From the human T2T-CHM13v2.0 reference genome, Homo sapiens, in NCBI RefSeq assembly GCF_009914755.1, contig NC_060947.1: DNA of 64,000 nt; one strand, given 5' to 3'. A program made the position numbers and the translations under genes. Below are positions 25,481 through 26,751 of the stretch, in pieces. The notes beneath the pieces were generated by a model. The model was not told the DNA's origin and ran no database searches. It worked only from the letters and a program-made list of their open reading frames with translations. Every line of letters starts with the position of its first letter. The first letter of the stretch is position 1.

Positions 25481-25849
25481 GATATTAGTAAGCTCAGCTG
25501 CCATAACAAAATACCATAGACTGGGTAGTTTAAACAACAGGAATTTATTTCTCACACTTCTGGAGGATGGCAAGTCCAAGGTTAAGGTGCTGGCCAATTT
25601 GGTTCTCCAGTAAGGTCTTTCTTCTTAGCTTGCAAACAGCTGACCTCTTGCTGTCTCAAGTGGCAGAGATAGACAAGTAAGCTGTCTGGTGTCTCTTCTA
25701 AGGGCACTAATCCTATCATGAGAGCTCTACTTTCATGACCTCATCTAAACCTAACTACCACCCCAAAGCTCCATCTTCAAATGCCATCATATTGGAGGTT
25801 AGGGCTTCAACATATGAATTTGGAAGGGGGTACAATTCAGTCCATAGCA
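25481..25849 (-). mobile_element. MLT1A-type MaLR solo LTR
   Basis: gctgccataacaaaataccatagactgggt...aagggcactaatcc...ttcaacatatgaattt...ttcagtccatagca. Confidence 0.88.
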
Positions 25850-25884
25850 GTATCTAATAGAATGGACTATGAAATTCATGTGTC

Positions 25885-26151
25885 TTTTTTTTTAAGACAG
25901 GATCTCACTTCGTTTACCAGGCTGGAGTGCAGTGGCACGATCTCGGGTCTGTGCAACCTCCTCCTCCCAAGCTCAAGCAATCCTCCTACCTCAGCCTCCC
26001 AAGTAGCTGAAACCACAGGCGCATGCCACCACGCCCAACTCATTTTTTGTAGAGACAGTGTTTCACCATGTTGCCCAGGAATGTCTTGAACTCCTGACCT
26101 CAAGCGATTCACCTGCTTCGGCCTCCCAAAGTGCTAGCCTCCATGGCCGGC
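25885..26151 (-). mobile_element. AluJ (15-bp deletion near the 5' end)
   Basis: gctcaagcaatcctcc, ctcaagcgattcacc; 'gtgct|agcc' lacks gggattacaggcgtg. Confidence 0.88.
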
Positions 26152-26315
26152 TATATGTATACACATACACATATATATACACACACACACATATACACAC
26201 ACATATATACATATATATACATATATGTATACACATATATACACACACATATATACATACATATATATACACACACACACACATATATGTGTGTGTGTAT
26301 ATATATATGTGTACA
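26152..26315. repeat. (TA/CA)n-(TG/TA)n low-complexity spacer
   Basis: Only alternating purine-pyrimidine units; perfect 26-bp palindrome at 26273-26298. Confidence 0.9.
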
Positions 26316-26751
26316 CCTGTGGTTTCAGCTACTTGGGAGGCTGAGGTGGGAGGATTGCTTGAGCTTGGGAGGAGGAGGTTGCACAGACCCGAGATCGTGC
26401 CACTGCACTCCAGCCTGGTAAACGAAGTGAGATCCTGTCTTAAAAAAACAGATACATGAATTTCATAGTCCATTCTATTAGATACTGCTATGGACTGAAT
26501 TGTACCCCCTTCCAAATTCATATGTTGAAGCCCTAACCTCCAATATGATGGCATTTGAAGATGGGGCTTTGGGGTGGCAGTTAGGTTTAGATGAGGTCAT
26601 GAAAGTAGAGCTCTCATGATAGGATTAGTGCCCTTAGAAGAGACACCAGACAGCTTACTTGTCTATCTCTGCCACTTGAGACAGCAAGAGGTCAGCTGTT
26701 TGCAAGCTAAGAAGAGAGACCTTACTGGAGAACCAAATTGGCCAGCACCTT
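26316..26751 (+). repeat. Right arm of a 436-bp inverted duplication of 25584-26019
   Basis: Reverse complement of the left arm (partial AluJ, unique linker, partial MLT1A); 6 substitutions and no indels by manual comparison; paired coordinates sum to 52335. Confidence 0.95.

What the first reader, a model, noticed from the sequence alone, without database searches (positions are those of the whole stretch)
25584..26751. Young 436-bp inverted duplication of old sequence around a 296-bp spacer
Seen: 25584-26019 and 26316-26751 are reverse complements with 6 substitutions (~98.6%) and no indels. The duplicated unit spans part of an MLT1A LTR, a unique linker and part of an AluJ, so it is not two independent insertions. 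The extra copy lies between two tracts of TA/CA low-complexity DNA and has no poly(A) tail or TSD. Established: close, near-identical inverted repeats are unstable and under-represented in primate genomes, can extrude hairpins, and form ADAR-editable dsRNA if transcribed. Inference: a recent template-switch or fold-back repair event started in the adjacent (TA)n tract. Alternatively an older event has been kept homogeneous by arm-to-arm gene conversion.
Basis: partly seen in the sequence, partly recalled or inferred. Interest (0 to 1): 0.8.

Follow-up and report, generated by a model that had tools for sequence, protein, structure and literature searches.

The report
Old local inverted duplication, RTL4 intron
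A 436-base piece of old repeat DNA on the human X chromosome was copied once, backwards, into a neighbouring hairpin-prone TA/CA tract several million years ago, an ordinary scar of faulty DNA replication or repair with no sign of a function.

Summary
Arms 25584-26019 and 26316-26751 are reverse complements with 6 mismatches in 436 nt, no indels and a 296-nt spacer.

It is not chance and not two separate insertions. The unit (LTR fragment, 34-nt unique linker, Alu 3' part) has only these two full-length copies in the whole assembly.

The left arm is the source. Family homology runs past both its ends but stops at both ends of the right arm.

The copy sits between a CA/TA microsatellite and a 2.2-kb, 96.5% A+T array that folds far better than shuffles. 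This fits a template switch or fold-back repair event.

"Recent" is not supported. Arm divergence is 1.38% (95% CI 0.5-3.0%), against 0.97% for human-chimpanzee X divergence (PMC11168930). The polarisable changes split 2 (source) to 3 (copy), so they look clock-like, not copying errors. The event is probably about as old as the human-chimpanzee split, or older.

It lies in an RTL4 intron and would fold into a 436-bp RNA stem. That is a rare but catalogued class.

Ape orthologues, population haplotypes and RNA editing could not be tested. Interest is low to moderate.

The parts
25482..25850 (+). Source LTR fragment. By my recall it is a MaLR/MLT1-like LTR; the subfamily was not tested. It extends about 100 nt to the left of the left arm.
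   Evidence: LTR-family copies from 6 of 6 other loci start aligning at 25482-25531, which is 53-102 nt left of the arm boundary, and five of the six end at 25849/25850 (L006's alignment runs on into an adjacent Alu); family hits cover arm positions 1 to about 268 at 73-82%.
25584..26019 (+). Left arm, the source copy of the duplicated unit: LTR part 25584-25850, unique linker 25851-25884, Alu 3' part 25885-26019.
25885..26151 (-). Full source Alu in minus orientation, with its poly-T at 25885-25893. The arm boundary at 26019 cuts through it.
   Evidence: Alu copies align to 25885-26135. Metazoa_SRP hit at 25892-26039 on the minus strand (41.7 bits, below the gathering score of 70). Sequence read.
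26020..26315 (+). Spacer of 296 nt: the rest of the source Alu (26020-26151) plus the CA/TA microsatellite (26152-26315). It is in the ancestral orientation relative to the left arm.
26288..26315 (+). A 28-nt piece of reversed polarity, (TG)n(TA)n, abutting the right arm. It may be a first templated inverted copy of microsatellite 26166-26191. With the preceding (CA)n(TA)n it forms a small hairpin.
   Evidence: positions 26152-26271 hold 25 C and 2 G; the bin 26272-26291 holds the switch (6 C, 2 G); 26292-26311 holds 0 C and 5 G; the reverse complement matches 26166-26191 at 25 of 26, but 38 of 500 unit shuffles score as well, so this is not significant; hairpin of -20.7 kcal/mol, z -2.1; only sub-threshold matches to microsatellite-type miRNA families.
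26316..26751 (-). Right arm, the inverted copy, truncated at both ends relative to the families: Alu part 26316-26450, linker 26451-26484, LTR part 26485-26751.
   Evidence: Alu copies align only from 26313 onward, and LTR copies end at 26642-26754, so 0 of 6 run more than 3 nt past 26751..
26752..28978 (.). (TA)n followed by an AT-rich array with period about 17/34. It is 2,227 nt long and 96.5% A+T, hairpin-prone, and its A/T skew flips sign near 27,700. It is the likely site of the stall or break.
   Evidence: DNA folds: 27640-28060 z -11.8 (0 of 100 shuffles fold as well); 26752-27340 z -5.0 (0 of 100).
22748..22907 (+). RTL4 exon, given for context. The inverted repeat lies about 2.7 kb downstream, in the following intron, on the transcribed strand.
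   Evidence: The hub's annotation table supplied with the finding. Not tested here.

Best explanation
This is a one-off, interstitial inverted duplication made by a copying error during replication or break repair. It has been kept as a neutral relic.

Ancestral layout (shown): LTR fragment, 34-nt linker, minus-strand Alu, CA/TA microsatellite, then (TA)n and an AT-rich array.

Event (inferred): a fork stalled or a break formed in the hairpin-prone TA/CA DNA. The free 3' end folded back or switched to the complementary template. It possibly first copied about 26 nt of microsatellite. It then primed at 26019 and copied 436 nt backwards to 25584. It then rejoined the (TA)n side. In the four-point template-switch notation the order of switch points is 3-2-1-4, which creates an inverted repeat with an uncopied spacer.

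Timing: arm divergence dates the event to roughly the human-chimpanzee split or earlier. The point estimate is 1.4 times the human-chimpanzee X divergence, with a range of 0.5 to 3.1 times.

Consequence (inferred): RTL4 pre-mRNA carries a 436-bp stem in which 434 of 436 positions can pair, 4 of them as G-U. Such a stem would be an ADAR substrate in the nucleus and is removed with the intron. No function is indicated.
For: - Exact inverted repeat.
- Only two full-length copies in the assembly, both at this locus.
- Source and copy can be told apart. Family homology continues past both ends of the left arm: the LTR for 53-102 nt in 6 of 6 loci, the Alu to 26135. It stops at both ends of the right arm.
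- The copy is embedded in low-complexity TA/CA DNA next to a 2,227-nt, 96.5% A+T array. Segments of that array fold better than all 100 shuffles (z -11.8 and -5.0).
- Microsatellite polarity flips from C to G 28 nt before the copy.
- Substitutions since the event are shared between the arms: 2 derived in the source, 3 in the copy, 1 unpolarised (48 alignments to family copies).
- Divergence is 1.38%, CI 0.51-3.0%, against 0.97% for human-chimpanzee X (PMC11168930, passage).
- Literature: the 3-2-1-4 type creates inverted repeats (PMC5453318, passages). Great-ape template-switch loci are enriched in AT-rich DNA (PMC7954356, passages). Fold-back duplications carry an uncopied spacer (PMC3907307, passages). 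Fold-back templated insertions at breaks combine polymerase synthesis at one end with end joining at the other (PMC11724301, abstract).
- The RNA fold gives a full-length stem, -964.9 kcal/mol.
Against: - No ancestral (empty) allele or outgroup was available. The order of events, the switch points and any junction microhomology are therefore inferred from the derived allele only.
- Microhomology cannot be read from a derived allele.
- The copied tract (436 nt) is 3.4 times the longest event (128 nt) in the great-ape template-switch set. It is also far smaller than the clinical fold-back duplications, the smallest of which seen in the passages was 10,434 bp.
- The 28-nt 'first hop' is not statistically distinguishable from low-complexity chance (38 of 500 shuffles).
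- Polarisation uses the majority base among family copies. That need not be this copy's state at the time of duplication; sites 25619 (13 C, 4 T, 2 G) and 25770 (16 C, 8 T, 2 gaps) are the weaker calls.
- The date assumes a neutral clock and no gene conversion.
Confidence: 0.7

Rival explanations
1. Two-step origin. A snap-back at the self-complementary (TA)n of the microsatellite first made a near-perfect palindrome centred near 26285, copying about 700 nt. A later asymmetric central deletion of about 240 nt then removed the inverted copy of 26020 to about 26260. That left the present 296-nt spacer and the small (CA)n(TA)n(TG)n hairpin as a remnant of the centre.
For: - Polarity switch from C to G at about 26288, with a local hairpin.
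- The reverse complement of 26288-26315 resembles the C-polarity tract, 25 of 26.
- By my recall, not read here, central deletions are a known way for palindromes to become stable.
Against: - It needs two events where one multi-switch event suffices.
- The best match of the 28-nt piece is at 26166-26191, not directly left of the centre. The match is also not significant (38 of 500 shuffles).
- The hairpin z-score is only -2.1, and 6 of 200 shuffles fold as well.
Confidence: 0.12
2. The duplication is much older than 1.4% divergence suggests, and the arms have been kept alike by arm-to-arm gene conversion, as in the large X and Y palindromes.
For: - Large sex-chromosome palindromes keep at least 98% identity through conversion (PMC11168930, passages; PMC8327919, listing).
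- All 3 CpGs per arm are unchanged in both arms. This is a weak hint that less time has passed since the last homogenisation.
Against: - The arms are 436 nt, against at least 8 kb in that class.
- The six differences are spread over the whole arm, 36 nt from the outer end to 33 nt from the inner end. No identical run exceeds 137 nt. No conversion tract has therefore swept the arm since they arose.
- No excess of changes towards G/C can be judged from 6 sites.
Confidence: 0.1
3. A very recent event, possibly polymorphic in humans, whose six differences were introduced at birth by error-prone break-induced or microhomology-mediated synthesis.
For: - By my recall, not read here, break-induced replication is mutagenic.
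- 3 of the 5 polarisable changes are in the copy.
- The lower confidence bound of the divergence (0.51%) allows an origin on the human lineage.
Against: - 2 of the 5 polarisable changes are derived in the source arm (25619, 25770). Copying errors cannot produce that.
- 6 errors in 436 nt would be an extreme error rate.
Confidence: 0.05
4. Assembly artefact: a chimeric fold-back read incorporated into T2T-CHM13.
For: Fold-back chimeras occur in long-read libraries (recalled). The locus adjoins 2.2 kb of AT-rich low-complexity DNA, which is hard to sequence.
Against: - The arms differ at 6 fixed positions and are separated by a 296-nt asymmetric spacer. Read-level fold-backs are expected to be identical and spacerless.
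- Some changes are derived in each arm.
Confidence: 0.02

Closest known systems
Short-range template-switch mutations, four-point model type 3-2-1-4 (Loytynoja and Goldman 2017, PMC5453318; Walker et al. 2021, PMC7954356)
   Same: A nearby stretch is copied in reverse complement and inserted downstream of its source, which creates an inverted repeat with a spacer. The event sits in AT-rich DNA, as those loci tend to.
   Different: The copied tract is 436 nt, against a median of 12 and a maximum of 128 in the gold-standard great-ape set. No ancestral allele was available here to show the switch.
Fold-back inverted duplications with a disomic spacer (Hermetz et al. 2014, PMC3907307)
   Same: An inverted copy is separated from its source by an uncopied spacer that corresponds to the fold-back loop.
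   Different: Those events have spacers of 766-70,466 bp and duplications from 10,434 bp to tens of Mb. They end in a terminal deletion, a translocation or a ring. This one is interstitial, 436 nt long, has a 296-nt spacer, and the chromosome continues normally on both sides.
Fold-back templated insertions at double-strand breaks in yeast (Yu et al. 2024, PMC11724301)
   Same: A local inverted templated insertion, with synthesis at one end and capture of the other end by end joining (abstract).
   Different: Those are mostly about 5-34 bp and were made experimentally in yeast.
Large X-chromosome palindromes (Jackson et al. 2021, PMC8327919; Makova et al. 2024, PMC11168930)
   Same: Inverted arms on the X with at least 98% identity around a spacer.
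   Different: That class is defined by arms of at least 8 kb, carries genes, is conserved among apes and is homogenised by conversion. Here the arms are 436 nt of repeat debris.
Long, highly paired predicted dsRNAs (dsRNAscan; Andrews and Bass 2025, PMC11838218)
   Same: More than 300 bp and more than 96% paired. chrX holds the most of this class (section read).
   Different: Most of the 2,018 form between inverted LINE insertions and 88% are intergenic. This one is a segmental copy spanning three sequence types and is intronic. Whether it is in their list could not be checked: only 1 supplementary file is held and it has no RTL4 or ZCCHC16 entry.

Membership tests
Template-switch mutation, four-point type 3-2-1-4 | The inserted fragment is the reverse complement of nearby sequence | tested here: met
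   430 of 436 positions are complementary. The source lies 296 nt away.
Template-switch mutation, four-point type 3-2-1-4 | Switch points ordered 3 < 2 < 1 < 4, meaning the source lies upstream of the insertion point and is not itself replaced | tested here: met
   fixes the left arm as source and the right arm as copy: point 3 = 25584, 2 = 26019, 1 = 26287 or 26315, 4 = 26752.
Template-switch mutation, four-point type 3-2-1-4 | An ancestral or outgroup sequence lacks the insert | not testable with these tools
   No primate or other human assemblies are held. The genome search offers only this assembly and prokaryotes.
Template-switch mutation, four-point type 3-2-1-4 | Short range and short length, as catalogued (median 12 nt, maximum 128 nt) | tested here: not met
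   436 nt against the figures in PMC7954356.
Fold-back inverted duplication (Hermetz type) | An uncopied spacer between the direct and inverted copies | tested here: met
   296-nt spacer.
Fold-back inverted duplication (Hermetz type) | Inverted microhomology between the distal spacer end and the start of the duplication | not testable with these tools
   It has to be read on the unrearranged allele. In the derived allele any microhomology is simply part of the arms.
Fold-back inverted duplication (Hermetz type) | A dicentric intermediate, with terminal deletion, translocation or ring | tested here: not met
   The event is interstitial. Sequence continues on both sides within the chromosome.
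Sex-chromosome palindrome | Arms of at least 8 kb with at least 98% identity | tested here: not met
   Identity is 98.6%, but the arms are 436 nt. Definition read in PMC11168930.
Inverted Alu pair (two independent insertions) | Each arm is a separate retrotransposon insertion | tested here: not met
   The arms share an LTR part and a unique linker. The right-arm Alu is truncated exactly at the arm boundary and has no terminal poly(A).
Long, highly paired dsRNA (>300 bp, >96% paired) | Predicted stem longer than 300 bp with more than 96% of positions paired | tested here: met
   the full-length stem is the minimum-free-energy fold. From the mismatch types, 434 of 436 positions can pair, 4 of them as G-U.
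Long, highly paired dsRNA (>300 bp, >96% paired) | Transcribed and A-to-I edited | not testable with these tools
   The intronic position comes from the hub's annotation only. No RNA-seq data are available.
Palindromic AT-rich repeat (for the flanking array 26752-28978) | A near-perfect AT-rich palindrome of several hundred bp | tested here: inconclusive
   The array is 96.5% A+T and its A/T skew flips sign. Inverted pairs inside it are only 70-83% complementary, yet segments fold far better than shuffles. The definition is recalled, not read.

The most novel reading that the evidence does not exclude
The hairpin is more than a scar. It would be one of the few long, near-perfect duplexes inside a gene (436 bp in an RTL4 intron, ape-specific). 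As such it could act on RTL4 expression, through editing-dependent nuclear retention or altered splicing. It could be a source of small RNAs. It could become an innate-immune ligand if the intron is retained. Its arms could also flip the spacer between two orientations among haplotypes.
Probability: 0.05. Interest if true: 0.5.

Novelty: new member of a known kind. Interest (0 to 1): 0.22.

Why it matters
On its own it matters little. It is a clean, datable example of a 0.4-kb templated inverted duplication seeded in hairpin-prone AT-rich DNA.

Its size falls between two catalogues seen here: short-range template-switch events (up to 128 nt, PMC7954356) and clinical fold-back duplications (10 kb and more, PMC3907307). 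A few hundred such cases, placed on the ape tree with complete ape assemblies, could show whether one mechanism spans the whole size range.

It also adds a long, near-perfect intronic duplex to RTL4. That is relevant only if editing or immune-sensing studies reach this gene.

Tried and rejected
- Known RNA family: Rfam gave 27 matches at E up to 1, and none reached its gathering score. The best was mir-3149 at 51.6 bits against 100. All of these lie in the CA/TA microsatellite, apart from the Alu/SRP matches, one hit at the right-arm/(TA)n boundary and one inside the right arm. They were rejected as low-complexity look-alikes.
- Ancient paralogue: L006 (another chrX locus) seemed to bridge LTR, linker and Alu. 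The linker aligns at only 16 of 30 columns with gaps and the overall identity is 71%, so this is a coincidental LTR-plus-Alu neighbourhood.
- Junction microhomology: I first read it as 0 nt at the inner junction. I withdrew that, because microhomology cannot be seen on the derived allele.
- The 28-nt reversed-polarity piece as a templated first hop: it matches at 25 of 26, but 38 of 500 shuffles do as well. I keep it as a suggestion only.
- Target-site duplication: not assessable, since both flanks are TA repeats.
- Listing in the dsRNAscan resource: only 1 supplementary file is held as text, and it has no RTL4 or ZCCHC16 entry.
- Locus in print: the search 'RTL4' plus 'inverted repeat' found 4 papers. 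Two concern plant RNase-III-like RTL genes and two are general transposon reviews. I judged them from the listing only, and none appears to describe this repeat.
- Genome-wide base rate: not sampled, because at about 2,018 such duplexes per genome the roughly 2 Mb I could fetch would hold about one.

Full report
**1. Observation**

The repeat finder reports arms 25584-26019 and 26316-26751, 436 nt, 99% complementary, with 296 nt between them. A direct comparison gives 6 mismatches and no indels. Written as left base / reverse complement of right base, they are 25619 T/C, 25757 A/G, 25770 T/C, 25882 G/A, 25886 T/G and 25987 T/C. Complementarity stops at once beyond both arm ends.

In the whole window, 16 inverted pairs of at least 150 nt lie within 5 kb of each other. 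This is the only one above 88%.

Against the whole 3.1-Gb assembly, 2 of the 43 listed matches to the arm are full length, and they are the two arms themselves. The other 41 are partial, at 71-86% identity. Only 40 of 6,862 first-look candidates were scored, best first, so counts of family members are lower bounds.

**2. Anatomy**

The partial genome hits fall into two groups:
- arm positions 1 to about 268, an LTR family that I recall as MaLR/MLT1-like (no transposon library was available, so MLT1A is untested);
- arm positions about 298-436, Alu. This is supported by sub-threshold Metazoa_SRP hits, on the minus strand in the left arm and the plus strand in the right arm. AluJ is untested.

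Between them lies a 34-nt linker, 25851-25884, that matches nothing else. The one locus that seemed to bridge it (L006) aligns 16 of 30 linker columns with gaps. The unit therefore crosses two repeat boundaries. It must have been copied as a block.

*Which arm is the source?* LTR copies from 6 of 6 other loci align to the left copy starting at 25482-25531, which is 53-102 nt outside the arm. On the right copy their alignments end at 26642-26754, and none runs more than 3 nt past 26751. Alu copies align to 25885-26135 on the left, 116 nt past the arm end, but only from 26313 onward on the right. The left arm therefore sits in its original context at both ends. The right arm is a doubly truncated inverted copy. 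The spacer (the rest of the Alu plus the microsatellite) is in the ancestral orientation in this haplotype.

*Surroundings of the copy.* To its left is a CA/TA microsatellite, 26152-26315. To its right is (TA)n and a 2,227-nt array of 17/34-nt AT-rich units that is 96.5% A+T. Segments of that array fold as single-stranded DNA much better than dinucleotide shuffles:
- 27640-28060: z -11.8, 0 of 100 shuffles as good;
- 26752-27340: z -5.0, 0 of 100 shuffles as good.

The array's A/T skew changes sign near 27,700, so the array is itself a degenerate palindrome.

Inside the microsatellite the strand polarity flips. Positions 26152-26271 hold 25 C and 2 G. The bin 26272-26291, which contains the switch, holds 6 C and 2 G. 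Positions 26292-26311 hold 0 C and 5 G. This gives a small (CA)n(TA)n(TG)n hairpin (z -2.1, 6 of 200 shuffles as good). The 28-nt reversed piece next to the copy matches the reverse complement of 26166-26191 at 25 of 26, but 38 of 500 shuffles score as well. That is suggestive only.

There is no terminal poly(A). A target-site duplication cannot be judged in TA repeats.

**3. Age**

Six differences in 436 nt is 1.38%, with a Poisson 95% CI of 0.51-3.0%. Makova et al. 2024 give a human-chimpanzee divergence of 0.97% on the X (PMC11168930, passage read). Arm-to-arm divergence accrues on two lineages, as species divergence does. The point estimate is therefore about 1.4 times the time since that split, with a range of 0.5 to 3.1 times.

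I polarised the differences by tallying the base that family copies hold at each site (48 alignments):
- 25619: C 13, T 4, G 2, so the left arm is derived.
- 25757: A 25, C 1, so the right arm is derived.
- 25770: C 16, T 8, 2 gaps, so the left arm is derived.
- 25886: T 15 of 15, so the right arm is derived.
- 25987: T 22, C 1, so the right arm is derived.
- 25882: lies in the linker and is not polarisable.

Two changes in the source and three in the copy is what a clock predicts. One-sided copying errors would not give this. None of the six is at a CpG, and all 3 CpGs per arm are intact. The differences span the arm, 36 nt from the outer end to 33 nt from the inner end, and the longest identical run is 137 nt. 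No conversion tract has therefore swept the arm since they arose. Earlier conversion cannot be excluded.

The event is 'young' only next to its constituent repeats, whose family copies are 71-86% identical. It is probably shared with at least some African apes and fixed in humans. That is a prediction, not a result.

**4. Mechanism**

Shown: a reverse-complement copy of nearby sequence, with its source upstream, an uncopied spacer, and an insertion point in hairpin-prone AT-rich DNA.

Inferred: a stalled fork or a break in that DNA, a switch of the 3' end to the complementary template (or intrastrand fold-back), 436 nt of synthesis, then return or end joining on the (TA)n side.

Comparison with the papers read:
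- In the four-point model this is type 3-2-1-4, which 'creates an inverted repeat' and, with its mirror, made up 31% of high-confidence human-chimpanzee events (PMC5453318, passages).
- Great-ape template-switch loci are enriched for AT-rich and poly(dA:dT) DNA, but their copied tracts have a median of 12 nt and a maximum of 128 nt (PMC7954356, passages).
- Clinical fold-back duplications all carry a spacer (766-70,466 bp in 21 of 21 sequenced junctions). However, they are at least 10 kb long and end in terminal rearrangements (PMC3907307, passages).
- Yeast fold-back insertions at breaks are mostly about 5-34 bp and combine polymerase delta synthesis with end joining (PMC11724301, abstract).

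The present case has the topology of all three but fits the size of none.

A two-step variant gives the same product and cannot be separated without an outgroup. In that variant a snap-back at the (TA)n makes a longer palindrome, and a central deletion follows.

Microhomology cannot be read from the derived allele.

**5. Consequences**

By the hub's annotation the repeat lies in the RTL4 intron that follows exon 22748-22907, on the sense strand. The 1,168-nt RNA folds into the full stem, -964.9 kcal/mol. From the mismatch types, 434 of 436 positions can pair, 4 of them as G-U (derived).

Andrews and Bass found only 2,018 of 5,134,754 predicted human dsRNAs that were both longer than 300 bp and more than 96% paired. 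chrX held the most, most formed between inverted LINEs, and 88% were intergenic (PMC11838218, section read). This stem meets those criteria and is intronic, so it belongs to a rare but catalogued class. It would be spliced out, and no function is indicated. Whether it is edited could not be tested.

On DNA stability, the papers seen tie fragility to closeness and similarity of the arms (abstracts of PMC10164571 and PMC3215922 in the listing). A 296-nt spacer should blunt that. Survival for millions of years, if the date is right, agrees.

**6. Not in print, as far as searched**

The search 'RTL4' plus 'inverted repeat' found 4 papers. Two are on plant RTL enzymes and two are general transposon reviews. 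I judged them from the listing only, and none appears to describe this repeat. The one held supplement of PMC11838218 has no RTL4 or ZCCHC16 entry; its full tables were not available.

**7. Verdict**

This is a real, well-defined but ordinary structural relic. Its 'recent' dating and its emphasis on instability are overstated.

The decisive tests are ape orthologues, human haplotypes and RNA editing. They need data that the tools do not hold.

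Noticed in passing
window 26752-28978: A 2,227-nt array of 17/34-nt AT-rich units, 96.5% A+T. Its A/T skew flips from A-rich to T-rich near 27,700. The unit marker TAGAAA occurs 22 times, all before 27,640. ATTTAT occurs 38 times, all after 27,726. The array is a degenerate AT-rich palindrome that folds far better than shuffles (z -11.8 and -5.0).
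   Followed up: partly
window 26243-26324: A (CA)n(TA)n(TG)n polarity switch forms a small hairpin. It gives sub-threshold Rfam matches on both strands to microsatellite-type miRNA families: mir-3149 at 51.6 bits against a gathering score of 100, and mir-297 at 48.6 against 90. I read this as a low-complexity look-alike, not a miRNA gene.
   Followed up: partly
L006 (G000:C23:132933486-132936817), locus positions 1335-1964 and 3207-3321: Another chrX locus has an LTR of the same family followed by an Alu at a similar position, and a CA/TA microsatellite about 1.2 kb further on. It aligns to window 25531-26135 at 71%, but the linker does not match (16 of 30 columns). The resemblance in layout is coincidental.
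   Followed up: yes
window 18493-18661 and 21754-21922: The second-best inverted pair in the window: 169 nt, 88% complementary, 3,092 nt apart, upstream of the RTL4 exon at 22748-22907. From their positions in masked repeat blocks, they are probably two independent Alu insertions. Not examined.
   Followed up: no
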